Shown here piece after piece: positions 1-57,590 of a DNA stretch of 64,000 bases (positions within the stretch are counted from its first letter, which is position 1; each line of letters begins with the position of its first letter). A program made the translations under genes and the position numbers. This DNA is from Mobula hypostoma (taxonomy: Eukaryota): positions 76,820,001-76,884,000 of the forward strand of contig NC_086097.1 of the NCBI RefSeq assembly GCF_963921235.1, given 5' to 3'. The notes under the pieces are model-generated. The model searched no databases, was not told the DNA's origin, and worked only from the letters and a program-made list of their open reading frames with translations.

Positions 1-513
1 TCATTGAATTGATTAAATAATATAGTTACTAATTTGAAGCATTCAAATGAGCTGTTTTGCAAGGAAATTCTTCTATTTTAATTGTTGAATATTTGGGTAA
101 TTTTCACATTTCATTACCTTTGTGCACTAGACGTCAAAGTGAAAATTAGTAAACTTTACAAAATTAAACTTTACTAAACATTGCATTGTTTAAATTCCAG
201 TGACTTGGGTAATTCCTTGCTAATTTAATTAATATGATACACAGAGACCCCATAATACCTAGATTTTCATTTAATCCTCAATAGAAGAAGAAGGCCCAAA
301 ATCACATGTATGTAGGTTTATCCATCTGTAATATAATGTTATAATTATGTATGTTTAGATGTCGTGATTATCTATTGATTTGTAAACTAGGAAAGTCCTT
401 TACAACCATCTGGAATATTGCACTATTGTCATATTTCTTTAACTCTCATTATTGCCATGCATTTTAGTTTTGCCTGATGAGCCATAATGAGGTATATTTA
501 TCATATTTTTCAG

Positions 514-1321
514 GTCAATAGACATTCTTGAGCTAATTGAAAATCAAGACCTCATGAAGTTCCATTACCATACACTGAAACTGTACTGTGCCTTGTGTGC
601 CGTGGGCAACAACCGCGTAGCCCATGCACTTTGTAGCCACATCGATCAATCTCAACTATTGTATACAATTGATAATAAATATCTGCCAGGGCTTCTACGC
701 AGTGGATTCTATGACCTCTTCTTAAGTATGCACCTTGAATCAGCTAAAGAAGCTAGATTAATTATGAACAACGAATTCATTATTCCTGTAACTGATGAAA
801 CCAGGAGTATAACACTGTTTCCAAAAAATAATCGGACTTATGGACTTCCCGGTGTTGGACTCAGCACCTGTTTGAGACCTCGATTAAACTTTTCATTGCC
901 ATGTTTTGTTAGCACCAGTGACGATAGACGTCAATACAGCCCGAAGTTGCCATTTAATATTCTTAAGGTCAAAGCAATCGAAATGCTCACAGAGGCTGTA
1001 ACGGGTGGTGGACCACACATTCGAGACCCAGTGGGGGGAAGTGTGGAATTTCAGTTAGTTCCTATTCTCAAGCTGATTAAAACCATGCTGATCATAGGCA
1101 TATTTGATGATAATGATGTCCAAAAAATTCTGCTACTGATTGATTCTGACTTGTTTGGCGAACACCAAGAGGAGAGAGTGGATGAAGATAAAACAGAGAA
1201 AGAGATTGTCACTAAAAATGAAGAGAAGGCTATAGAGGCTGGAGAAGCAGTAACGCAAGTGACTCAACCCGCTTTCAAAGGACTGCTGGAGAAAAGTTTG
1301 CCAGAGTCTGTTAAACTTCAG
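514..1321 (+). CDS. RYR3: RyR exon A (808 nt): SIDILELIENQDLMKFHYHTL...LPESVKLQ
   Basis: tttttcag acceptor (511-513), CAG|gtac donor; contains ORF 554.. with ALGNNRVAHALCSH-like and HIRDPVGGSVEFQ motifs. Confidence 0.95.
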
Positions 1322-3610
1322 GTACAATACACCAGTACAATTTCTGCACTGTGTGGCAAACTAATGCATATTTTGTGCTTATTTTTGTTTTAGAGGACCT
1401 GAAAGATTAATGGAAAGCTTAGGGAACAGTGCATTACCCAGGAAATTATAGTGTATGGAGGAACTTACTGTAGAAGTTTGCCCAGAAAATTTGTTTTACA
1501 AATGGAAGAGCTAAATGAACAGATTGAAAACAAATTAATGGCTGTGATCTGCAGCAGTAATGCCAACAGCAACTGTGAAAGTTAGGGAAACACCAATGTG
1601 TGAGGGACTTCCACACTACTCATTCAGGCATCTGCTGGAAGCCTAAAGGTTTGCACATCTGGTCTTGGCACTCCTAATTTTGACTCCTTGTGATCTTCCT
1701 GTCAAGTCCAAAGCCAGAGTGCCCCTTTCTACAACATGCCCTGCATATTTGCTGGGAAATCCTTCAGTGTCACGTATGCACTTGTAGGAGGCTGGAAATT
1801 CAGAGGGTCACCTGATTGGAAAAGTTTCCACATAAAGGGTTAGGAAAACGAATAGTTGTGAGCAGAGAGCAGAATTTGAGAGGCTACACCAGCTAGACAC
1901 TAAGGCAGCCAAAGAAGCAGGCAAAATCTAAATAAAGCTCTGAAGATGTTTGGTATGCATAGTGTCTATTAGCTGGACCTAATTACTGCTGGAAGAGCAA
2001 TGACACCATAGTGCCACCTATTGGGCAAAACCCAAAACTGCAGTGCTGGCATTGATGTCATTTGCATAAACTTCAGGTTGCAGGAAGTGGGGATGGGAGT
2101 TTTTCCATTATAAGTATGGATATTGATGGGTGTCAAAGTTTATTCAGGTCACTACATATTAATATCATGCTGAACTTTAACAGTCAGTGATCTTTGAAAT
2201 TGACTGCAATGCTCATCTGAGTGAATAACTTGCTGATAGCTGAAGAATAATCACTTGAAATTAGTTGGGGTTTTGCAGACATCCCACCCTGCAAAAACTC
2301 ATTTCAGGGAGGTAGCACCACCACTCTGCCCCCTGCAACCCCATATCACTCCCCCCCCCACCCTCGGTCGACCTCCAAGGGTGTATGTATACACGACATT
2401 TGATTATGAAAGAACACAACAATTTGTTTGATCACATATTGAAACTATTTGCACAGAAATAGAGGGAGAGGAAATTATGAAACAAACAATGCCCTAAAGT
2501 AGATATATTTATCTAAAAGAAACATGCTGGTTTAACTTGGTGAGTTTTAAACTGGAAAGAAACTGATCAAACACAATCCCCAATAGAGCACAGTAAAATC
2601 ATACTGATTTTGTTTATAGAGAAAAATATTTTCCAATGATTCAGCTGCTCAGGCCAGTGAACATTTACACAGGCCGTTCCCAACCCCAGCCCCTCTTCCC
2701 ATTTATATTGCACTATTTGACTTTATTTTCAAATGTTTTCTCAAGATGCGGGTGTCAGTGACAAGCCGAGTGTTAATTGGCGACTACTTCATTGCTACAT
2801 CTAAATTCTGGGCCTACTTAGCCAGTAGCATTATGTGAACACTTTTACCAGAAGATGGCTCACTGCTATGACCCGGAGGCAGCTGGGAGTGAGGAATAAA
2901 TGCTGACAGTCCAGCACGGATCCTGAAAAATGAATAAATATCAACAAGGGACTCAACAATATATTTTGTACTTGAATATCTAGTCAGATTAATAGGATCC
3001 GTTTGGGTAAGATTATGGAACATGGTAATTTGAAGAGCCTCTTTACAAATATAATTTAAGCTATAATTACTCAGACTTTACACACTACAGAATGCTGACT
3101 GTCAGTTCATTGCTTAACTGTTCCTGCAGCAAACTGCATTTCATTTTACAAAACCAAAGTGTTGATCCTGACCAGTTTATGATTTGTTTAATTTTGAACT
3201 GGCATTTATTTCCATCTACAGTAGAGGGACAAACACTGAATAGGAGAGCAAAATGTCTAAACTATTGGATTAGATTTTAGATTTTGGACAATTGAATTGG
3301 GACAACCCCGTAATTTTGGTAAATAAGAATCTGGTATTTATGATGGCACTCAGATTGCCATGGAAACCAATTAGGAAGGAAATCTTCTGTTCTCTCCCGG
3401 TCAATACAGGACTTCTGATTCAAAGTAATGTGATTAAAATTGTTTAATAAGCCAATCAATTCAAGGAATATTTAGAGAAATAATAAGAAGAAGAATAACA
3501 ATAATAGCTTATTTACAGAGGTGCTTTACTATGGGATAAAATGCAAACATGAAAATTAAGGACAGAAGGATATTAGTTAAAAGCAAAGTTAAATAAATAT
3601 GTTTTGAGCT

Positions 3611-5692
3611 TGTGGAGTTCTGTATAGGTACGTTCCAATGAGACAGGGAAGTTATGGCAGGGTACAGGAACCGTGGTATACAAAGGCTGTAATAAATCTA
3701 GTCAAGAAGAAAAGAAAAGCTTACAACAGGTTCAGAGAGCTAGGTAATGTTAGAGATCTAGAAGATTATAAGGCTAATAGGAAGGAGCTTAAGAAGGAAA
3801 TTAGGAGAGCCAGAAGGGGCCATGAGAAGGCCTTGGCGGGCAGGATTAAGGAAAACCCCAAGGCATTCTAGAAGTATGTGAAGAACAAGAGGATAAGACG
3901 TGAAAGAATAGGAACTATCAAGTGTCACAGTGGAAAAGTGTGTATGGAACTGGAGGAAACAACAGAGGTACTTAATGCAACTCACAAAAAAAGTGCTGGT
4001 GAACGCAGCAGGCCAGGCAGCATCTATAGGAAGAGGTACATTCGACGTTTCGGGCCGAGACTCTTTGTCAGGACTTAATGAATACTTTACTTCAGTATTC
4101 ACTATGGAAAAGGATCTTGGTGATTATAGTGATGACTTGCAGCAGACTGAAAAGCTTGAGCATGTAGATATTAAGAAAGAGGATGTGCTGGATTTTTTGG
4201 AAAGCATCAAGTTGGATAGGTCACCTGGACCAGATGAGATGTACCCCAGGCTACTGTGGGAGGAGAGGGAGGAGATTGCTGAGCCTCTGGCGATGATCTT
4301 TGCATCATCAATGGGGATGGGAGAGGTTCTGGAGGACTGGAGGGTTGCGAATGTTGTTCAATTATTCAAGAAAGGGAGTAGAGATAGTCCAGGAAATTAT
4401 AGACCAGTGAGTCTTACTTCAGTGGTTGGTAAGTTGATGGAGAAGATCCTGAGAGAAAGGATTTATGAACATTTAGAGAGGTATAATATGATTAGAAGTG
4501 ATCAACATGGCTTTGTCAAGGGCAGGTCATGCCTTACCAGCCTGATTGAATTTTTTGAGGATGTTACTAAACACATTGATGAAGGAAGAGCAGTAGATGT
4601 ATTGTATATGCAAGGTATTTGATAAGGCACCCCATATAAGGCTTATTGAGAAAGTAAAGAGACATGGGATCCAAGGGGACATTGTTTTGTGGATCCAGAA
4701 CTGGCTTGCCCACAGAAGGCAAAGAGTGGTTGTAGATGAGTCATATTCTGCATGGAGGTCGGTCACCAGTGGGGTGCCTTAGGGATCTGTTCTGGGACCC
4801 TTGATCTTTGTGATTTTTATAAATGACCTGGATGAAGAATTGGAGGGATGGGTTAGTAAGTTTGCTGATGACACAAAGGTTGGAGGTGTTGTGGATAGTG
4901 TGGAGTGCTGTCAGAGGTTACAACGGGACATTGATAGGATGCAAAACTGACAGAATATAGTATTAATGGTAAGACGCTTGGCAGTGTGGAAGATCAGAGG
5001 GATCTTGGGGTCCGAGTTCATAGGACATTCAAAGCAGCTGCGCAGGTTGACTCTGTGGTTAAGAAGGTGTACGGTGGATTGGACTTCATCAATCATGGAA
5101 TTGAATTTAGAAGCCAAGAGGTAATGTTACAGCTATATAGGACCCTGGTCAGACCCCACTTGGAGTATTGTGCTCAGTTCTGGTTGTCTCACTACAGGAA
5201 GAATGTGAAAGCCATAGAAAGGGTGCAGAGGAGATTTACAAGGATGTTGCCTGGATTGGGGAGCATGCCTTATGAGGATAGGTTGAGTGAACTCGGCCTT
5301 TTCTCCTTAGAGCGACGGAGGATGAGAGGTGAACTGATAGAGGTTTATAAAATGATGAGAGGCATTGATCGTGTGTATAGTCAGAGGCTTTATCCCAGGG
5401 CTGAAATGGTTGCCACAAGAAGACACAGGTTAAAGGTGCTGGGGAGTAGGTACAGAGGAGATGTCAGGGGTAAGTTTTTTACTTAGAGTGGTGAGTGCGT
5501 GTAATGGGCTGCTGGCGATGGTGGTGGAGGCGGATACGATAGGGTCTCTTAAGAGATATTTAGATAGGTACATGGAAAATAGAGGGCTATAGTTAAGCCT
5601 AGTAATTTATAAGGTAGGGACATGTTCGGCACAACTTTGTGGGCCGAAGGGCCTGTATTGTGCTGTAGATTTTCTATGTTTCTATGTTTCTA
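3611..5692 (+). mobile_element. CR1-clade LINE, 5'-truncated, degenerate ORF2 (RT) with 3' tail
   Basis: SPGPD, NYRPVSLTSVVGK, QHGF..GRSCLT, SKFADDTK and LVRPHLEYC motifs with stops and deletions; (TTTCTATG)n tail. Confidence 0.92.
3978..4072 (-). mobile_element. 95-nt Penelope-like terminal fragment inserted in the CR1 copy
   Basis: Similar to 55505-55600; flanked by duplicated ACTTAATG (3970-3977 and 4073-4080); absent from the sister CR1 copy at about 29460. Confidence 0.85.
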
Positions 5693-6586: not shown

Positions 6587-6787
6587 ATGTGCGAACTGCT
6601 TCACTACTTCTGTGACTGTGAACTCCGACATCGAGTGGAAGCCATTGCATCTTTTGCTGACAAGTTTGTTGTAAAGCTGCAAAGGAACCAAAAGTTCCGG
6701 TATGAAGAACTTATGCTGGCCTTCGATATGTCGGCAGCCTTGACGGCCAGGAAGTCAAAAGAATTCCGTTCACCTCCTCAGGAGCAG
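6587..6787 (+). CDS. RYR3: RyR exon B (201 nt): [10 protein letters not shown]...EFRSPPQEQ
   Basis: ttttctag acceptor, CAG|gtaa donor, phase 0/0. Confidence 0.95.
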
Positions 6788-8317
6788 GTAATGTCCAACA
6801 TTTCTGTGAATGGGTTAATTTCATATAATTAACAGCATACCTGTCTTTGCTTTTGGGTATTTTAGAGACTGCACTGTAAAGGAAAGCTGCTGCTTCCAAA
6901 GAATCTAAAGTGGATTTCTTCAGGTGGCATGAGATAGTTTTTCATTCTAATCTTTTTGAATGCAATTGTAATTCCACTTTTACATCAATGCAGAGTGGTT
7001 CTGAGTGGGCATTGTTGCAAATCCAGCAATTTATTCATTGCTCCTAGAAAATATAGTAAGCCATTTACTGGAAAGTTCCCCTCAGGAGATTACTATGTAA
7101 TGATTTCAATATAGACCCTGTGTTTAGGATTTTCCTGCATAGGCAGTTTTCACAAGCAGTGTCCATGATGTCTACCAATGGTAACATCCTCCAGGGCAAT
7201 ATCTTCGGCATTCAAATTTCCCATTCAATTACATCTAAGCAGGTGCAAGTTTAGATGTGAGGTGGGGCCAGGACAGAGGGAGTCCAATTGCTGCCGGGAT
7301 CATAACAAGGTAAGTGCAAATACTTCACAGATCATTGAAGTAAGGTTTTATTGGTAGTAGGGGAAAATTTTTATTTTGATAATTTTTGATGAGTAGTGGT
7401 AAGATTAAAATAAATGATTTTGTAAGGACAGTAGACAATTTAAGTGGTCACTGTTTACTCATGGCCTTCTGTTGTTGAGTCTGTAAATGTTCATGACTTC
7501 TCCAGATTGAGTAATCACTGATCAAGGATTCCCAGAAATTGTTAGGGACGTTACACTTTTTCACAGAGAAGTGCCTTACTTCTGTCTTCCAGTGAATCTG
7601 CCATTACTGAGCTCAGAGTGGGATGCTCCCTCCCAGAGCAAGCGGACAATGTGGTCTGCCCATCAGAACTGGTTGAGCATGACCACAGCTTCACTCTTGG
7701 GAATTGTGGTCAGGGAGAGGACACTGACATTGAGTGCCAATCCTGTCAAAGGATTTGTATTATTTTGTAGAGACTGTGATGGTGATATTTCTCCTGTGCT
7801 GTGAGGAGCTGCTCTAGGTTGTCTACAGTTAGTTGACCACAAGCTTGATACCAGAGCACTTGGAGTTTTCTACTTCCATGAATTTAGTGGAATTGTACAG
7901 AATTATTAACAATAAAAATTAGCACAGTGGTTTAAAGCGTTGAGTAAGTATACACATGACATTGTGATCAATGGGTTGAATCATTCATTTGAGCATCTGC
8001 CAGCAACTCACCAATAGTTTGAGATAACAACATGCATCACTTGCTGCTCTGGATGAATGGCCAACTCAATTTATCAGGAGTACCTTGGGGAGATCACATG
8101 ATAGTGCATTGACCTTGGAGATTCAGCAGCTTGGAGCTTTTCCCATTGGTTACCTTCTTTTAGGCTGAAGAGGAGCTTGCTGGCCATACCACACCAAACA
8201 AGGGACCAACTGAGGAATATTAGGGTTTTGTGGGGCAATTATTTGGGAGGAAGGGCATACTTTGAAAATATGTTTTTTAATTAACCTAGAAGCTGACTTT
8301 AAAGTACATACTGTATG

Positions 8318-13579: not shown

Positions 13580-14203
13580 GTCACTCTCTCTCGCTATCTT
13601 TTTTGTTTACTCTCTATTGCTCACTAACTTTCTTTCTCACTGTCTCTGTCTGTCTTTCTCTCTCACTCTTCCCCTTCCCCCTTCTCCCCCACCCCCTTCA
13701 CCATGCTCCCCCTTCTCCCCCTCCCCCTTCTCCCCTCCCCTTCTCCCCCTCCCCCTCACCCCCTCCCCCTTCTCACCCTCCCCTTCTCCCCGTCTCTCCT
13801 CCCTCTCCTCCCCTTACCCCCCCTTTTCCTCCCCTTCCTCCTCCCTCCCCCTCCTCTTCCCCTCCCCCTAACCCCCTCTCCCCCTCCTCCCTCTCCCCCT
13901 CTCCTCCCCCTCTCCCCCTCCCCCCCTCTCTCTCTCTCCCTCTTATCCTCACCCCGTCCCCCTCCTCTCACCAATCTGTCATCCCCTTGCCCTCCCCTCC
14001 TCACCCTGCCCACCTTTCCCTCTCTTTCAACTTCCTTCCTCTCCCTCTCTCCCTCTCTCCCTCTCTCCCTCTCTCCCTCTCTCCCTCTCTCCCTCTCTCC
14101 CTCTCTCCCTCTCTCCCTCTCTCCCTCTCTCCCTCTCTCCCTCTCTCCCTCTCTCCCTCTCTCCCTCTCTCCCTCTCTCCCTCTCCCCCCTCTCTCCCCT
14201 CTC
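13580..14203. repeat. About 620-nt polypyrimidine tract ending in a (CTCTCTCC)n 8-mer microsatellite (about 14040-14190)
   Basis: Almost pure C/T on the + strand; gives spurious Pro/Ser/Leu ORFs. Confidence 0.95.
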
Positions 14204-14539
14204 AGGCAATTCTCATGATTTTAACACGTGAACATAATAGGTTTATGAAACTGAACTGACAGGCTATATATACCCTTGGATTTTAACCAGCCTTCCATCT
14301 GTTTGTCATTTTTAATGTAGCAGGCTTCGTTTGGAAGGCCACTTGTAAGTCAGTGTGTTACAGTAGACGTTTCAAAGTCTACAGGTATTTTATTTAGTGT
14401 TCAATGAAGTATCTCTATCAGTTTCACAACAAAAAAGGCAAAATTGGCACAATGTATGGATTAATGGCCTGTTCCTGAAACACTGTGGGCTATCAGGTGA
14501 AGTACGAGTATTTGTTGCCTCTACAGGTTAACAACAACC

Positions 14540-28749: not shown

Positions 28750-30590
28750 AAGCATAGAAACATAGATAACCTACAGCACAATACAGGCTCTTTGGCCCAC
28801 AAAGCTGTGCCGAACATGTCCTTACCTTAGAAATTACCTAGGGTTACCCCCAGCCCTCTACTTTTCTGAGATCCATGTACCTGTCCAGGAGTTTCTTAAA
28901 AGACCATATCGTTTTTCCCTCCACCACCATCATCGGCAGCCCATACCACGCACTCACCACTCTCTGCGTAAAAAAACTTACCCCTGGTATCTCCTCTTTA
29001 TCAACTTCCAAGTACTTTACAACTCTGCCCTCTTGTGTTAGCCACTTCAGCACTGGGAAGAAGCCTCTGACTATCCACATGATCAATCCCTCTCATTATC
29101 TTGTACATCTCTTACCAACCACTGAAGTAAGACACACTGGATTATAATTTCCTGAGCTATCTCTACTCCCTTTCTTGAATAATAGAACAACATCCGCCAC
29201 CCTCCAATCCTCCGGAACCTCTCCCGTCCCCATTGATGATGCAAAGATCATTGCCAGAGGCTCAGCAATCTCTTCCCTCGCCTCCCACAGTAGCCTGGGG
29301 TACACCTTGTCCAGTCCCGGTGACTTATCCAACTTGATGCTCCAAAAGCTCCAGCACATCCTCTTTCTTAATATCTACATGCTCAAGCTTTTCAGTCTGC
29401 TGTAAGTCATCCCTGCAATTGCCAAGATCCTTTTCTGTAGTGAATACTGAAGTAAAGTACTCATTAAGTACCTCTGCTATCTCCTCCGGTTCCATACACA
29501 CTTTTCCATTGTCACACTTGATTGGTTCTATTCTCTCATGTCTTATCCTCTTGCTTTTCACATACTTGTAGAATGCCTTGGGATTTTCCTTAATCCTGTC
29601 CACCAAGGCCTTCTCATGGCCCCTTCTGGCTCTCCTGATTTCTTTCTTAAGCTCCTTCCTGCTAACCTTTCCCGATCTCATTGGAATGTACCTATGCAGA
29701 ACTCCACGCAAATATCCCCTGAACATTTGCCACGTTTCTTCCGTACATTTCCCTGAGAACATCTGTTCCCAATTTATGCTTCCAAGTTCTTTCCTGATAG
29801 CCTCATATTTCCCCTTACTCCAATTAAATGTTTTCCTAACTTATCTGTTCCTATCCCTCTCCAATGCTATGGTAAAGGGGATAGAATTGTGATCACCATC
29901 TCCAAACTGCTCTGCCACTGAGAGATCTGATACCTGACCAGGTTCATTTCCCAATACCAGATCAAGTATAGCCTCTCCTGTTGTAGGCTTATCTACATAT
30001 TGTGTCAAGAAACTTTCTTGAACACACCTAACAAACTCCACCCAATCGAAACCCTTCGCTCTAGGGACATGCCAATCGATATTTGGGAAGTTAAAATCTC
30101 CCACCACAAAAACCCTGTTGTTATTACACCTTTCCAGAATCTGTCTCCCTATCTGCTCCTCAATGTCCCTGTTACTATTGGGTGGTCTGTAAAAAACACC
30201 CAGTAGAGTTATTGACCCCTTCCTGTTCCTAACTTCCACCCACACACACTCCGTAGACAATCCCTCCAAGCCTTCCTCCTTTTTCTGCAGCCGTGACACT
30301 ATCTCTGATCAACAGTGCCATGCCCCTACCTCTTTTGCATCCCTCCCTGTCCTTTCTGAAACATCTAAAGCCCGGCACTTGAAGTAACCATTCCTGCCCC
30401 TGAGCCATCCCAGTCTCTGTAATGGCCGCAACATCATAACTCCAAGTACTGATCCACACTCTAAGCTCATCAGCTTTGTTCATAATACTCCTTGCATTAA
30501 AATAGACACATCTCAAACCATCGGTCTGAGCGTGTCCCCTCTCTATCACTTGCCTATCCTCCCTCTCGCACTGTCTCCAAGCTTGTCTTA
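28750..30590 (-). mobile_element. CR1 LINE of the same subfamily as 3611-5692, with endonuclease domain and RT core deleted
   Basis: YFNARSI.NK, AITET, FYRPPN, GDFNFP, LDLVL and GDHN motifs; near-identical KELKKEIRRARRGHEKAL segment; deletion junctions near 29110 and 29668. Confidence 0.92.
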
Positions 30591-38254: not shown

Positions 38255-38761
38255 GTAACTCAACTAATATAGGGTCAATATCACCTTACACTGATTTTCT
38301 TATATCTGAAGCATTTCGGGAGGATCCTCGGTGCATTTCAATACTTTGAATCATCTTAGGGACTAATTCAACTAAAGAACATTTGCAAAAAGGCTTCAGA
38401 ATGTTTGGATGCATTGTTTTTGCTTCGCGCCACACAGCAGTAAGCAGCAGAGTTTTAATACATGGTTTCTTGTTGGTGTGTTTTAATTCATTTTGTTTAT
38501 TTTTGGGTGCTTTATTTCTTGTGGCACTGTTAATTTGAGTACTTATTTAACCTGCTCTTTGCTACTAACCTAAAATTCATGGTGATGTATGATGAGTGGG
38601 ATTCCCAAAATGCCATTGGAAGAAGCTTGCAAGAGGGGAACACCATTTTCTCAAATAAAAGAACTTGGAAGATTGAAGGCACAGAGTGGTTTCATGGGTT
38701 TAGGATGAAGGTGTCATTTTGACATTGTGCTTTTTGTGCAAGGTGGTGCAAAGCAAAGCAT

Positions 38762-38966
38762 CACACACAGAGTGCTGGAAGAACTCAGTGGGCCAGGCAG
38801 CATCTACGGGAAAGAGTAAACAGCTGACATTTCAAGCCGAGACCCTGATGAAGGTTTACTCTTTTTTTTGCTCTTTTCCATAGATGATGCCTGGCCCACT
38901 GAGCTCGTACAGCATTAAGTGTGTGTTGCTTTGGATCTCCAGGATCTGTAGATTTTCTTGTGTTTG
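38762..38966. mobile_element. Miniature fold-back Penelope-like tail element
   Basis: About 58-nt inverted arms (CTCAGTGGGCCAGGCAGCATCTA / TAGATGATGCCTGGCCCACTGAG); centre carries CCGAGACCCTGATGAAGG. Confidence 0.75.
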
Positions 38967-41003: not shown

Positions 41004-41568
41004 TACTCAGTGTCCACTTTATTAGGTACTCATGTACTCCTGCTCATCAATGCAAATATCTAATCAGCCAATCCTATGGCCACAATTCAATGCATAAAAA
41101 CATGCAGATATGGTCAAGAGGTTCAGTTGTTGTTCAGTCCAGACATTAGAATGGGGAAGAAATCTGGTCTAAGTGACTTTACTGTTTCATGATTGTTGAT
41201 GCCAGAAAAGGTAGTTTGAGTATCTCAGAAACTGCTGATCATCGGGGATTTTCACGCACATGAGTCTCTAGAGTTTACAGAGAATGAGGTGAAAAACAAA
41301 AAAAAATCCAGTGAGTGGCAGTTCTGTGGGTGAAAACACCTTGTTAATGAGAGAAGTCAGTGGAGAATAGCCAGGCTTGTTCAAGCTGACAGGAAAGAAA
41401 ATAACAAATAACCATGCAGTACAGCAGGGGTGTGCAGAAGTGCGCCTTTGAATGCACAACATGTTGAAGCTTGAAGTGGATGGGCTACAGCAGCAGAAGA
41501 CCACAAATATACACTCAGTGGGCACTTTATTAGATACAGGAGGTACCTAATAAAATGGGCACTGAATG
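41004..41568 (+). mobile_element. Non-autonomous Tc1-like DNA transposon
   Basis: TIR CTCAGTG.CCACTTTATTAGGTAC, ends in TA; relic from 41151 reads MGKK..LSDF..MIV.AR....SISETAD..GFSRT.VSRVYRE. Confidence 0.85.
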
Positions 41569-41669
41569 TAGATTTCATAAGAGCTTTAATAAGCTGTCAT
41601 AACAAAGAATACTGGATAAAGTAAATATTCATGGTGCAGGAGATAGCATATTGGCATAAGATAAAATAA

Positions 41670-41970
41670 GAAAAAATGACAGATTTCGGAAATCTGCAAA
41701 ATAAAACAAAGCAATTCTGAAAAACTCAGCAAGCCAGGCACATCTGTGGAAACAAAGAGTTAACTACCAATTTTAGCCATTTGGTCTACCCTATCAGAGA
41801 TATTCCCTTTTTTCCACCAGACTTTCTTTATCGGCTCGTCCGCTTGAAACCAACTTGTTTTTTTTCTCTTCCCCAGTTCTGCTGAGAGTCCCGGACCTGA
41901 AATATTAACTGTTTCTCTTTCTACATATGCTACCTTACTTGCTGAGTATTTCCAGCATTTTCTGTGTTTA
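41670..41970. mobile_element. Old fold-back Penelope-like tail relic
   Basis: Inverted ACTCAGCAAG / CTTGCTGAGT arms; degenerate hammerhead motif at 41874-41911. Confidence 0.6.
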
Positions 41971-50631: not shown

Positions 50632-51015
50632 AAACTCAAGGGATCCTGCAGATGCTGGAAATCTTGAGCAACAAGCATAAAATGCAAGAGCAACTCAGCA
50701 TGTCGAGCAGCATCTGTGAGGGGGAATAAACAGTTGACATTTTAGGCCTAGACTCTTAATCAGGACTGGAAAGGAAGGGGCAAGATGATGGAAGGGAGAG
50801 GAGTAGAAGCTTACAGGTGATAGGTGAAACCAGAGGTGTGTTGGTGGAGAAGGGGGATGAAGTAAGAAGCCGAGAGGTGATAGGTGGACAAGGTAAAAGG
50901 CTGAAGAAGAAAGTCTCTAATAGGAGAGGACAGTAAGCCATAGAGAAAGGGAAGGAGGAGGGGCTCAAGAAGGAGCAAATGGGCAGGTGAAGAAAGCAGA
51001 AGGGGTGTAAGGAGA
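50632..51015 (-). mobile_element. Penelope-like 3' tail relic
   Basis: CTGCAGATGCTGGAAAT terminus shared with 56701-56716; purine-rich UTR; degenerate hammerhead motif at 50731-50769. Confidence 0.7.
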
Positions 51016-51057: not shown

Positions 51058-51198
51058 CTTTTAAGTAATCATTATACACAGTGCTGGAAGTACTATTGCC
51101 TGGCATCTGGATGGGGCAGTTATGGAAGTGCATCTGATGAAGAGTTGCACCTTACCAAGAAATTGTTCTGGGGAATTCTGGATGCACTCTCAATAAAA
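51058..51198 (+). CDS. RYR3: RyR exon P (141 nt): [23 protein letters not shown]...[12 protein letters not shown]
   Basis: attatag acceptor, AAA|gtaag donor. Confidence 0.94.
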
Positions 51199-52742: not shown

Positions 52743-53593
52743 GTATGATTTCAGAATAAAATAACAATGGCTTTCAATGAATATGGTCCCGATACGATAT
52801 CATTGTTTATGATTTGAACCGGATATTAATATGAATCTGCAAAATAACTCTCAATGCTTAGGTCATTAGTAATGTTAAAAAAGAATTGTAAATTCACATC
52901 TGCTTCAAAAATAATGCAATTCTGAACTTCATTCTGAAGGTTTTACATTTCATTGAAGAAGTTTTACTCTTAATACCTCTTCACAGATGAAGCAATTTAT
53001 TAGAATTTCTAACATTTTTTTATTTTGTCTGAATATTTGTAAAATTATTTCTTAAGTAATTTTTCTTTGAATAGCATGCATGAACTATTTCAGCATAACA
53101 TCAGGTCCATGAATATTGCTTTTTAATCTGCATTTACTAAGAGATTTGCAGAATTAGACTGGAGATATTAGGAAAGGAAGTAACGGTAATTCAGATGGCA
53201 TCAACACCACTGAATAATTTTATATAGTTTCTGTAAAACAACATAACCTCATTTTGCCTTTGTCTCATAATTGGCACAATTTTGTCAGAAAATATATAAA
53301 ACCCAAACTTACCGGCAGAACAGCTGCTCACATTGATAAAGCACATTGTTGAACCTTTAAAACCCACTGGCAGTAAGGTAAAATAACAAACTTCGAACTT
53401 CATTCACAAACTATTTGGTGCAAGGAGATCTTGACCAAATTTGGTGGTTCTTTGACCAATTTGGCAATCCTCCATTAGTTTCATTATAAATAATTGCCTA
53501 ACCTAGTTGCAGAGTAATTTTGTTTTGAAAATATAGCTTCTTAAAAACTTTTCATTTCAACTTGTTTATAGTGTCTTTAACTCTGTCTTTCAG

Positions 53594-53672
53594 TATTTCA
53601 ATTCCGGAGAAGTTGGAGCATATTGTGAACAAATATGCAGAACATCTCCATGAGAAATGGGCTCTTGAGAAG
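53594..53672 (+). CDS. RYR3: RyR exon R (79 nt): ISIPEKLEHIVNKYAEHLHEKWALEK (RyR repeat 3)
   Basis: tctttcag acceptor, AAG|gtaa donor. Confidence 0.94.
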
Positions 53673-53829
53673 GTAAAATAGTAAGGGCATATTTTGGACA
53701 TTGGCAATATTTTCAGAGAAAGGAGTTGAAAAAAAGTTAATTTTAAGTTAGAGTAAAAATGATAATGCTGGAAATCCTCAGCAGCTCTAGCTCCTAATGA
53801 TGGGTAAGTGACGAATAGATCTACTGAAC

Positions 53830-54085: not shown

Positions 54086-56078
54086 AACTCAATGATTTCC
54101 ATCCAGAATTAAACCTAATCTCCATTTCTTGTCTTCAGCGCACTCTGCACAGCCCCCTGTTCTTACATGAAACAAGCTCCTGGGTGCCTTCTTCCAATGG
54201 GAAGCAGGCTCTCTGCTGGTCAGCCTAGTGCAATCAGTACTTGCAATCAATGTTAACAAGATGTGACAAGAAAATACTTTAAAATCCAGAGAAGCCTCAG
54301 CTCCAGCTTCGCTGAAATTGAAACTCACTGACACAGAGTAACAATAATTCAGAAACAATTCTATTAAATGTATTATTAAATAATAAGATCAAATAAGATA
54401 CAAATAGAAAACTTAATCCATATAAACACTAGGAAACAACTAAATACATTTAAATCAACTTGATTAAATAAAGAAGGCTCATACTTGCACTTTACTCCTT
54501 AGCTGATGTTTCTCCATTAAAACCAAAGGGACTGCTGAATTTAAGCCAAGTCTGACAGGCAGAATTCCCAACCGAAGTGCTATGAAATCTGCTGTAATTT
54601 TTGCTCTCCAGCTGGACTCCATGTAGAGTACAGTTGATCCATCATCTGTTAAGAAGTTTAAGGCTTGTGCTTTCATTCAGAGTAATCCACACAAAAGCAT
54701 GTATACAAGCCAACAGCCTTGAATTGGAACTGGTGGATTTTAAGTATAAGACATTTCATTAACTTGCATTTAGTACTGAATTGGACAAAAATTTAAATAC
54801 TGCTTCAAGGTTCAGCAGGCATCTGAAAGATACAATGCCTTTACATCAAGTTACCACACTTATTAAGTTGAAGGCGTAACTCCCTGTAAATGTTCTATAG
54901 TCATAACAGCTGTTTGCCTTGGTATATAATTGATTTTAATTGCATCTTAGAGTGACATTCAATTGCAGAATACTCAGCAACATTGAAATTCTGAATATTG
55001 CCTTCTGTTTACATTTGACAATCCAACTACACAGAAAACCTATGGAGAATTTTTTTTGGAGTTGTGGGCCTGCTTGCTCTGGTAGTGCAAGTAACATGCC
55101 AAAAGCATAAAATAAAAGTGGTAGCTAATTCTACATAGTACAGATTAGGGAGTAAAGGAATACTCTCTGCTTTCCTGGAGGAGTGCTGCTCCAATATTAC
55201 TCACAAAGCACTAGAAACTTCCGGAACACTATAGCCCACTTGACACGCCAATGACCATCTGTGTCCTGTTGCTGCAGTATGTATTATGTACAAAATGCAC
55301 TACAACTACTTGCCTGTGCTGTTTCAACAGCATCTGCCATATCATAGACCACGACCACTAACTAGGACAAGAGCAACGAAAACTTGGGCACCTATAAGTT
55401 TCCTTTTCACTGGCCCATCATCCCAACATGGAACTGCAAAGTAATTCCTTTACCGTTGCTGGATCTAAACCCTGGAATCCCCAGCCCAACAGTATTATGG
55501 GGTAACACACATCAAATTTGCTGGTGAACGCAGCAAGCCAGGCAGCATCTCTAGGAAGAGGTACAGTCGACATTTTGGGCCGAGACACTTCATCAGGACT
55601 AACTGAAGGAAGAGTTAGTAAGAGATTTAAAAGTGGGAGGGGGAGGAGGAGATCCAAAATGATAGGAGAAGACAGGAGGGGGAGGGATGGAGCCAAGAGC
55701 TGGACAGGTGATAGGCAAAAGGGGATATGAGAGGATCATGGGACAGGAGGCCCAGGGAGAAAGAAAAGGGGGAGGAGGGGAAAAACCCAGAGGATGGGCA
55801 AGGGGTATAGTCAGAGGGACAGAGGGAGAAAAAGGAGAGAGAGAGAAAGAATGTGTGTATATAAATAAACAACGGATGGAGTACGAGGGGGAGGTGGGAC
55901 ATTAGCGGAAGTTAGAGAAGTCGATGTTCATGCCATCAGGTTGGAGGCTACCCAGACGGAATATAAGGTGTTGTTCCTTCAACCTGTGTGTGGCTTCATC
56001 TTTACAGTAGATACGTCTATCCATGGCCTCCTCTACTGTAAATTCTGATATGTCTATCCATGGCCTCCTCTACTGTAA

Positions 56079-56297
56079 TTTGCTGAACACTTACGCTCTG
56101 TCCGCCAGAGAAAGCAGGATCTCCCAGTGGCCACACATTTTAATTCCACATCCCATTCCCATTCTGATATGTCTATCCACGGCCTCCTCTACTGTAAAGA
56201 TGAAGCCACACTCAGGTTGGAGGAACAACACCTTATATTCCGTCTGGGTAGCCTCCAACCTGATGGCATGAACATTGACTTCTCTAACTTCCGCTAA
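56079..56297 (+). pseudogene. C-terminal GIY-YIG endonuclease fragment of a Penelope-like element
   Basis: Reads FAEHLRSVRQRKQDLPVATHFNSTSHSHSDMSIHGLLYCKDEATLRLEEQHLIFRLGSLQPDGMNIDFSNFR* (72 codons; EH, VA.HF, E...I and P.G.N motifs). Confidence 0.88.
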
Positions 56298-56596
56298 TGT
56301 CCCACCTCCCCCTCGTACTCCATCCGTTGTTTATTTATATACACACATTCTTTCTCTCTCTCTCCTTTTTCTCCCTCTGTCCCTCTGCCTATACCCCTAT
56401 CCCATCCTCTGGGTTTTTTCCTCCCTCCCCCTTTTCCTTCTTCCTGGCCTCCTGTCCCATGATCCTCTCATATCCCTTTTGCCAATCAACTGTCCAGCTC
56501 TTGGCTCCATCCCTCCCCCTCCTGTCTTCTCCTATCATTTTGGATCTCCCCCTCCCCCTCCCACTTTCAAATCTCTTACTAACTCTTCCTTCAGTT

Positions 56597-56632
56597 AGTC
56601 CTGACAAAGGGTCTCGGCCCGAAACGTCGACT
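56597..56632 (+). ncRNA. Minimal type I hammerhead ribozyme motif (core G8 mutated)
   Basis: AGTC-CTGACAA-A-GGGT(CTCG)GCCC-GAAA-CG-TC^-GACT: stem I AGTC/GACT, stem II hairpin, palindromic stem III ACGT. Confidence 0.75.
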
Positions 56633-57024
56633 GTACCTCTTCCTAGAGATGCTGCCTGGCCTGCTGCATTCACCAGCAAATTTGATGAGTGTTGCTTGAA
56701 TTTCCAGCATCTGCAGAATTCCTCGTGTTTAAGTATTATGGGGTACCTTCACCAGGAGGTCTGCAGCAGTTCAAGAGATGGCTCACTGCCACTTTCTCCT
56801 GGACATTTAGAGAGAGTTAAAAAATGCCAGCCTGGCCAGCAGTGTCCAGTCTTGAAAACTGAGTTACTATCTACCCAAGTTAAATGTTGAATGTTTATAT
56901 TGTAAAGCGAAAAAGATAATATTAGAGAAAAATGTAATGAAGTCATTATGAAAAAGAATTGTGAAAAATGCATAATTGTCGTACATTTCAGCAAATGAGA
57001 TTTAGTTTTGCTACTTACTTGCAG

Positions 57025-57114
57025 ATACAAAATGGGTGGACGTATAGTGATACAATCAATGAGAATATGAAGACTCATCCATTATTGAGACCGATTAAAA
57101 CATTAACCGAAAGG
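57025..57114 (+). CDS. RYR3: RyR exon S (90 nt): IQNGWTYSDTINENMKTHPLLRPIKTLTER
   Basis: cttgcag acceptor, AGG|gtaagg donor. Confidence 0.94.
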
Positions 57115-57590
57115 GTAAGGGACTTCAGTGTATGTTTTGTGTCTAAATTGGGTTGTTACTACTGGTTGCTGCATTATTTTCATTAAATTATAGGAGTATT
57201 TACAATGAAGCTTTGGCTCCAACTACACTCTTGAATTTCTATTCATGGGTATAACTGTTAGGGAAGTGTTTGTTTCATATCAGGGCTTAAGGATAGTGTT
57301 TCATGGGAGAAAGCTGTTGTAGGAGGAGTGCAGGTGGGTGAGGAGTTAAAATATGTTGATACAGTAGCAGAACTGGAGTAGAGGATGAGGGATTACTTTA
57401 AGGGGTCAGTGTAAGAGCTGGACACGACTGTTGCAGCTCTCCACAGTGCAGTGCAATTAGAAGAGGCCTCACAGATTAAGAGCACAGTACTATTTTGTAA
57501 ATCCCCTTTAAACTTACCTCCTCACCTTAAACACCTCCAGTATTTGACATTTTAAACCTGGGAAAAGACTTCTTCTTCTATCTATAACAA

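What the first reader, a model, noticed from the sequence alone, without database searches (positions are those of the whole stretch)
55565..56632. Family of minimal hammerhead-ribozyme motifs in Penelope-like tails inside RyR introns
Seen: 56597-56632 reads AGTC CTGACAA A GGGTCTCGGCCC GAAA CG TC GACT. The mirror copy (55600-55565, minus) reads AGTC CTGATGA A GTGTCTCGGCCC AAAA TG TC GACT, and 4075-4040 (minus) reads AGTC CTGACAA A GAGTCTCGGCCC GAAA CG TC GAAT. Their consensus (stem I - CUGANGA - stem II - GAAA - palindromic ACGU - UC cleavage site - stem I') is a type I hammerhead. Established: Penelope-like elements carry minimal hammerheads that cleave mainly as dimers. Inference: the ancestral element was self-cleaving. 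Each copy here has a core lesion at a CpG (G8>A or G12>A).
Basis: partly seen in the sequence, partly recalled or inferred. Interest (0 to 1): 0.75.

Follow-up and report, generated by a model that had tools for sequence, protein, structure and literature searches.

The report
Decayed Penelope hammerheads in RyR introns
These three motifs are real but ordinary: broken copies of the small, predicted self-cutting RNA motif already known from Penelope-type jumping genes, left by a very abundant family in introns of a calcium-channel gene, where they likely do nothing.

Summary
Confirmed. The three 36-mers are minimal type I hammerheads in the pseudo-LTR of a Neptune-type Penelope-like element (RT + GIY-YIG, 3.5-kb unit), inside introns of a + strand RyR3-like gene. 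Two are arms of one inverted insertion (14-bp target duplication); the third is a 98-nt stub. Each has G8>A or G12>A; only 56597-56632 is sense in the pre-mRNA, and it is broken. The genome holds 83,064 matches to a CpG-tolerant form of the motif, and other core-bearing families have compensatory stems. This is the known PLE min-HHR class; the scan noted it before in this and at least 14 other genomes. Two additions. An estimated 0.7% of copies begin at the predicted cut, so templates were mostly copied uncut; 5' ends gather instead at the ribozyme's front edge. Cleavage itself was not tested.

The parts
56597..56632 (+). minimal type I hammerhead copy, C11.1 subfamily, G8>A; sense in RyR pre-mRNA; predicted cut after 56628
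55565..55600 (-). hammerhead copy in the inverted arm; G12>A, G10.2>U, N7 C>U, C15.2>U; antisense to RyR
4040..4075 (-). hammerhead copy; G8>A, G10.2>A, one stem I mismatch; antisense to RyR
56079..56731 (+). right arm: 5'-truncated Penelope-like element (end of endonuclease, pseudo-LTR, hammerhead, long tail ending +103 from the cut)
56079..56294 (+). open frame: last 72 residues of the GIY-YIG endonuclease
   Evidence: tblastn E 6.5e-39 to the L063 ORF; no Pfam hit on this piece alone
55505..56011 (-). left arm: inverted, shorter copy ending at the short 3' site (+64/65); 95.1% identical to the right arm over 508 nt
56012..56078 (+). junction between the arms: two short repeats of element sequence from 56161-56198
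55491..55504 (+). 14-bp target-site duplication, left copy
56732..56745 (+). 14-bp target-site duplication, right copy
3978..4075 (-). 98-nt stub from stem I to the short 3' site, inserted in a LINE ORF2 fragment; 8-bp duplication at 3970-3977 and 4073-4080 (3 bases shared with stem I)
   Evidence: (arms I4 and I9 overlap by 8 nt in the uninterrupted copy)
50667..50768 (-). older sister-family copy, G8 and G12 lost
38757..38930 (.). older sister-family fold-back pair (38757-38846 minus, 38869-38930 plus), 5' core missing
41714..41967 (.). very old relatives (41874-41967 plus, 41714-41759 minus), core decayed
491..1390 (+). reading frame holding the RyR exon before the 4-kb copy (RyR2 residues 1637-1907; best match RyR3)
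6587..6793 (+). next RyR exon (RyR2 residues 1906-1974)
53592..53675 (+). RyR exon before the 56-kb insertion (RyR2 residues 2710-2737)
57025..57117 (+). next RyR exon (RyR2 residues 2738-2766)

Best explanation
The three motifs are decayed copies of a minimal type I hammerhead carried in the pseudo-LTR of a Neptune-type Penelope-like retrotransposon, and they are likely inert where they lie in RyR introns. Shown: full-length elements have one motif in each pseudo-LTR, 3,485 nt apart, around an RT + GIY-YIG frame; copies end at two 3' sites about 65 and 100 nt past the predicted cut; the window holds one two-armed insertion and one stub, both with target duplications. Inferred: reverse transcription starts inside the RNA at those two sites and runs through an uncut ribozyme; in source elements the motif likely cuts only weakly, as a dimer through its ACGU palindrome and probably with help from the element's protein; after insertion, methyl-CpG decay removed G8 or G12. 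The one sense copy lacks G8 and has no intact sense partner in the window, so it is predicted not to cut the RyR pre-mRNA.
For: pLTR-ORF-pLTR copy L111 with motifs at 3393 and 6878. RT and GIY-YIG Pfam hits (E 2e-5 and 1.9e-4, both just under the curated cut-offs). CX4CXXC linker in the L063 ORF, which PMC8557442 gives for Neptune and Nematis. 3' ends: 32 of 66 at +51..+80 and 29 of 66 at +81..+125, like the two RT start sites and tail of PMC11167929. The arms differ at 23 of 508 sites and carry different lesions, each intact where the other is broken. CpG change at N7-G8 is symmetric (8 TG, 6 CA of the first 100, by eye; 3 and 2 of 30 by script). Across five core-bearing families 82.9% of cells pair against 60.8% in shuffles, covariation score 0.50 against 0.20, slid controls at most 0.19. 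The lesion-free monomer folds its core into an inactive rod. 25 of 31 young copies in 540 kb of arbitrarily placed stretches read through the cut and 0 of 31 start there.
Against: No cleavage was measured. On 'pairs with a two-sided change' the covariation test was not significant (5 observed, 324 of 500 shuffles as high), sequences are related within families, and family A rows were gapped at two stem II pairs. Families C, D and E were not shown to lie in PLEs. Rfam found no hammerhead. All three named copies carry a core lesion whereas about 10 of 100 CpG-tolerant matches do (by eye); this is more than expected, though these are older copies and two are antisense. The Neptune assignment rests on one motif, not a tree.
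Confidence: 0.88

Rival explanations
1. In the source lineage the motif has become a structural signal rather than a nuclease: the youngest and largest subfamilies fixed G10.1-U11.1, cleavage is weak or absent, and the fold is kept because it marks the RNA 5' end, stops RT or binds the protein. This concerns the family, not the window copies.
For: Exact counts: U11.1 32,886, C11.1 4,891, mirror change G12>A 1,121, so U11.1 was fixed in active masters. U-type copies are younger (2.4%, n=57, vs 4.3%, n=19, p=8e-5). The stem II segment drops from -5.1 to -2.5 kcal/mol. 5' ends gather at -60..-25 (9 of 20 ends in -300..-25, 13% expected, p=5e-4), not at the cut. In Anolis PAc, ribozyme mutants did not affect insertion in vitro (PMC11167929), and Naiads spread without canonical HHRs (PMC8557442).
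Against: All other core positions keep the canonical base as the majority, and the change fixed is the one that still pairs. U11.1 also permits a slipped A-U register at -2.2 kcal/mol with canonical spacing. PMC3088659 tested natural variants with weak stems or a U10.1-U11.1 mismatch (passage read). The -60..-25 interval was chosen after reading earlier notes.
Confidence: 0.3
2. Ribozyme cleavage makes the template 5' end for a minority of insertions, leaving a small excess of junctions at G1.1.
For: By eye, about 16 of the first 100 truncated copies start at +1 against 1-10 at each of 14 other positions; 36 of 100 within -4..+1; 15 of 30 by script.
Against: 13 of those 15 join other element sequence (8 inverted, 5 direct), where GAC/GACT microhomology exists because stems I and II are inverted repeats. 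The best-matched position (-3, also a G after C) had 21 of 100. The estimated share of all copies is about 0.7% (420 filtered matches of 90,843; my filter correction about 4-fold). No clear pile-up of 3' ends at C17 among the first 100 of 1,934 matches, which were mostly small indels (by eye).
Confidence: 0.2
3. Intronic copies regulate or damage the RyR pre-mRNA by self-cleavage, and the lesions were selected.
For: All 8 family hits in the window lack an intact core. Two sense, core-intact copies lie further down the gene (L070:4074, L072:3182). A preprint reports that retrozymes are depleted in introns of Xenopus (10.64898/2026.07.22.740005, passages).
Against: Two of the three named copies are antisense. 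Lesions are ordinary CpG transitions, symmetric in the family. 10 sense vs 15 antisense hits in 124 kb show no clear bias. The intact sense copies are about 19 kb apart, and min-HHRs were inactive as monomers (PMC4209133).
Confidence: 0.05
4. The hammerhead likeness is chance; the stretch is just a hairpin in a repeat's untranslated end.
For: Descriptor hits in the window do not exceed shuffles; no Rfam hit; no unusual folding energy.
Against: Every core position, the extra nucleotide, the palindrome and the pLTR location match the published class; unrelated stems in other families pair; an older sister family keeps 32 of 36 positions but only 32 of 72 upstream (6 copies, selected by motif, so biased upward).
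Confidence: 0.02

Closest known systems
Minimal type I hammerheads (min-HHR) in pLTRs of metazoan PLEs (Cervera and De la Pena 2014, PMC4209133)
   Same: CUGANGA/GAAA core, extra nucleotide between 9 and 10.1, short stem I, no loop 3, palindromic 15.2-16.2, place in the pLTR, mostly solo truncated copies, opposed pairs a few hundred bases apart.
   Different: Stem II is 4 pairs, not 7-8 as in Schistosoma; the majority allele has G10.1-U11.1 where that paper calls G-C highly conserved; 83,064 pattern matches against about 4,000 (coelacanth) and 9,000 (Xenopus) there, by different methods.
Neptune-clade EN+ Penelope-like elements (Craig et al. 2021, PMC8557442)
   Same: RT then C-terminal GIY-YIG, CX4CXXC linker, inverted 5'-truncated copy, 30-40-bp tail at one end only.
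   Different: No microsatellite target at the two window insertions; clade not tested by a tree (Nematis shares the linker).
PAc, Poseidon element of Anolis carolinensis (Frangieh et al. 2024, PMC11167929)
   Same: Two internal 3' ends that define a tail; uncut RNA as the main template.
   Different: There the ORF starts inside the ribozyme; here the first ATG is 141 nt past the cut. Different clade. Activity was measured there, not here.
Non-LTR retrozymes (10.64898/2026.07.22.740005)
   Same: Type I hammerhead, pLTR ancestry.
   Different: No short tandem array here; copies are truncated ends of an autonomous element.

Membership tests
PLE minimal type I hammerhead | Core C3-U4-G5-A6-N7-G8-A9, G12-A13-A14-A15.1, U16.1-H17 | tested here: met
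   Met by the family; each named window copy fails at G8 or G12
PLE minimal type I hammerhead | Stems I and II, open end in stem I, compensatory changes | tested here: met
   82.9% paired, score 0.50 vs 0.20; one of five measures clearly not significant, families related
PLE minimal type I hammerhead | Extra nucleotide between A9 and 10.1; palindromic 15.2-16.2 | tested here: met
   Extra A unchanged in 58 of 58 copies, CG majority at 15.2-16.2
PLE minimal type I hammerhead | G10.1-C11.1 pair (conserved trait, not in the descriptor) | tested here: inconclusive
   Met in the window copies and 4,891 exact copies; G-U in 32,886
PLE minimal type I hammerhead | Located in both pLTRs of a PLE | tested here: met
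   L111, motifs 3,485 nt apart
PLE minimal type I hammerhead | Self-cleavage after position 17 as a dimer | not testable with these tools
   No assay; the lowest-energy cofold was a duplex, not a double hammerhead
EN+ PLE, Neptune clade | Single ORF with RT and C-terminal GIY-YIG | tested here: met
   836-residue open frame in L119; Pfam hits just under cut-off
EN+ PLE, Neptune clade | CX2-5CXXC linker | tested here: met
   CX4CXXC in L063 ORF
EN+ PLE, Neptune clade | Inverted truncated copy and one-sided tail | tested here: met
EN+ PLE, Neptune clade | RT phylogeny with reference PLEs | not tested
   No reference PLE proteins fetched
Non-LTR retrozyme | Tandem short repeats, each with a hammerhead, no ORF | tested here: not met
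   Solo or inverted copies with ORF remnant
Conserved intronic hammerheads (HH9/HH10 type, recalled) | Single-copy, intact, sense, canonical helices | tested here: not met
   Multi-copy, broken, two of three antisense

The most novel reading that the evidence does not exclude
In this genome the most recent and largest bursts of the element came from masters whose hammerhead traded the conserved G10.1-C11.1 pair for G-U, about 99% of copies do not begin at the cut, and 5' ends gather at the fold's front edge. The PLE hammerhead would then be kept mainly as a structural or boundary signal with cleavage tuned down, and this family, with dated alleles in tens of thousands of copies, would be a ready test set for the open question of what PLE hammerheads do.
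Probability: 0.3. Interest if true: 0.55.

Novelty: new member of a known kind. Interest (0 to 1): 0.25.

Why it matters
The window copies matter little: they are predicted-dead debris of a published class. The family has some value because the role of PLE hammerheads is still unclear (PMC8557442, PMC11167929), and it offers natural alleles (C11.1, U11.1, G8A, G12A) with whole-genome counts, relative ages and thousands of junctions against which cleavage models can be tested.

Tried and rejected
Rfam scan: no hammerhead family. Generic descriptor: no better than shuffles; its hit at 51137 lies in a reading frame that looks like an RyR exon (by eye) and is taken as chance. Folding z-scores: uninformative. 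Dimer cofolding: the lowest-energy form is a duplex, which neither supports nor excludes the double hammerhead. Apparent protection of the core in dead copies (22 of 22 intact) shrank when copies were anchored outside the motif (G8>A in 6 of 58), so selection on inserted copies was dropped. 3' ends at the cut: pattern mostly caught small indels. Sequencing runs: no RNA holder listed; four runs were contigs only and show no starts or ends. Linking families C, D, E to a PLE protein: no hit. Pfam on the L063 and L065 frames: no hit. Literature searches found no paper on this family or on a G10.1-U11.1 PLE variant; Lunse et al. (PMC5785218) is not held, and no supplements were opened, so either could already list it.

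Full report
Observation. The three 36-mers are present as written. Read as RNA: stem I AGUC/GACU, CUGANGA, one extra A, a 4-pair stem II with a CUCG loop, GAAA, then ACGU with no loop 3, and C17 at 56628. The copies at 56597 and 4075 have G8>A; the copy at 55600 has G12>A. Motif searches alone do not lift them above chance: 2 one-mismatch descriptor hits against 0-5 in 20 shuffles, no hammerhead among 10 Rfam matches, folding z-scores near zero. The family does. In the 3.48-Gb genome the lesion-free C11.1 36-mer occurs 4,891 times exactly, the core pattern 29,396 times against 20 for the control, and a CpG-tolerant 35-mer 83,064 times.

Host. Consecutive RyR exons on the + strand flank both sites: RyR2 residues 1637-1907 and 1906-1974 around the 4-kb copy, 2710-2737 and 2738-2766 around the 56-kb pair. 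The two longest exons tested score best with RyR3; shorter ones do not settle the paralogue. Only 56597-56632 is sense in the pre-mRNA. That the animal is a cartilaginous fish, likely a ray, is recalled from the look of its repeats and was not tested.

Anatomy. 55505-56731 is one insertion between two copies of a 14-bp target duplication. Its right arm (56079-56731) begins with the last 72 codons of a GIY-YIG endonuclease and ends 103 nt past the predicted cut. Its left arm is an inverted, shorter copy ending at +64/65. The arms differ at 23 of 508 sites and each is intact where the other is broken, so the lesions most likely arose after insertion. The 4-kb copy is a 98-nt stub with an 8-bp duplication inside a LINE fragment. 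A profile search finds 8 family hits in the window, none with an intact core, and none in 5 shuffles.

The element. L111 is a pLTR-ORF-pLTR copy with motifs 3,485 nt apart; L119 has an 836-residue open frame. Pfam RT and GIY-YIG hits fall just under the curated cut-offs. The linker is CX4CXXC, the Neptune/Nematis trait in PMC8557442 (passages read). The first ATG is 141 nt past the cut. 3' ends are bimodal: 32 of 66 at +51..+80, 29 of 66 at +81..+125, 5 elsewhere. This matches the two internal RT start sites and tail shown for Anolis PAc (PMC11167929, parts 1-2 of 4 read).

Is it a hammerhead? A pattern that excluded this family's stem II gave 955 matches against 136. Of 30 loci, 28 fell into four further families. 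I aligned 14 of these (leaving out 14 more of family B and 2 unassigned) with 5 copies of this family and its older sister. 82.9% of 123 cells pair (shuffles 60.8%), covariation score 0.50 (shuffles 0.20; slid controls at most 0.19). The count of pairs with two-sided change (5 of 7) was reached by 324 of 500 shuffles, rows are related, and family A was gapped at two pairs. Family B has an upstream frame that looks like a Poseidon-type endonuclease end (by eye, recalled); C, D and E were not tied to a PLE. An older sister family keeps 32 of 36 motif positions but 32 of 72 upstream (6 copies, picked by motif). All traits listed for metazoan min-HHRs in PMC4209133 (parts 1-2 of 4 read, supplements not seen) are present.

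First addition: the majority allele. Exact counts are 32,886 for U11.1, 4,891 for C11.1 and 1,121 for C11.1 with G12>A. CpG decay is symmetric at N7-G8 (8 vs 6 of 100 by eye; 3 vs 2 of 30 by script), so decay explains only about 1,100 of the U11.1 copies; the rest come from masters that had fixed U. U-type copies diverge 2.4% from their group majority (n=57), C-type 4.3% (n=19), p=8e-5 (groups under 5 copies left out of 91 aligned). All three named copies are C-type. U11.1 weakens the stem II segment from -5.1 to -2.5 kcal/mol and permits a slipped A-U register at -2.2. Its effect on cutting is unknown; PMC3088659 (passages).1-11.1 the most conserved pair after 15.1-16.1 but describes natural variants with a mismatch there.

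Second addition: copies do not begin at the cut. Of 90,843 copies with the 3' anchor, 420 lack the GAAA block under a filter that I estimate passes a quarter of junctions; 36 of the first 100 start at +1 (by eye), about 0.7% of all copies. There is a local excess at +1 (about 16 of 100 against 1-10 elsewhere, by eye), but 13 of 15 such junctions checked join other element sequence where microhomology is available. In 540 kb of arbitrarily placed stretches 25 of 31 young copies read through the cut and none start there. 5' ends gather at -60..-25: 9 of 20 ends between -300 and -25, p=5e-4 (65 ends kept; 8 and 11 of two sets of 30 loci dropped by filters; interval chosen after reading earlier notes). 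The 4-kb stub is such a copy. This agrees with PMC11167929, where ribozyme mutants did not affect insertion and cutting needed the protein.

Mechanism. Shown: element structure, ends, duplications, lesions, allele counts. Inferred: a source RNA with two pLTRs can pair its ACGU palindromes into a double hammerhead that cuts weakly, probably protein-assisted (by analogy to PMC4209133, PMC11167929 and review passages in PMC6765202); RT starts at +65 or +100 and copies through the uncut motif; truncation and inversion give stubs and two-armed inserts; CpG decay follows. G8C abolished cutting in PAc; that G8>A and G12>A do likewise is inference from established hammerhead chemistry (recalled). In the 124 kb of the RyR gene examined there are 10 sense and 15 antisense hits; two sense copies beyond the window keep the core, about 19 kb apart.

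Novelty and score. This is a new member of a published class. Five searches found no paper on this family or the G-U variant, but Lunse et al. was not available and supplements were not seen. PMC544870 and PMC2837043 (passages) did not bear on G-U at 10.1-11.1. The scan has noted the same kind of element many times. Interest 0.25; the novel reading (hammerhead kept as a structural signal with cutting tuned down) has probability 0.3 and would deserve 0.55.

Noticed in passing
L070:4074-4174 (+) and L072:3182-3281 (+): Two sense, core-intact copies further down the same RyR gene, about 19 kb apart; better candidates than the window copies for any effect on the pre-mRNA.
   Followed up: partly
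L231-L260, around position 1501: At least four more hammerhead-core families with different, pairing stems (955 matches vs 136 control); one has an upstream frame resembling a Poseidon-type endonuclease; three not tied to an element.
   Followed up: partly
L220, L224, L229 around 1513: Copies that read from the 5' arm of stem I directly into the 3' arm, as if the whole ribozyme core were deleted through a 3-base microhomology.
   Followed up: no
L212 and L213: 31-nt tandem duplication whose unit begins exactly at the predicted cut.
   Followed up: no
L113:2914: A full-length copy whose 5' end lies inside the hammerhead, upstream of the cut.
   Followed up: no
window 41505-41575: About 30-bp near-perfect inverted repeat; weak Rfam microRNA hits far below the gathering score; probably a MITE-like remnant.
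   Followed up: no
window 3770-4433 and 29111-29669: Two opposed copies of one LINE about 90% alike; the second is uninterrupted and shows the empty target site of the 98-nt stub.
   Followed up: partly
window 13650-14210: Long pyrimidine-rich tract with an 8-nt tandem unit in an RyR intron.
   Followed up: no
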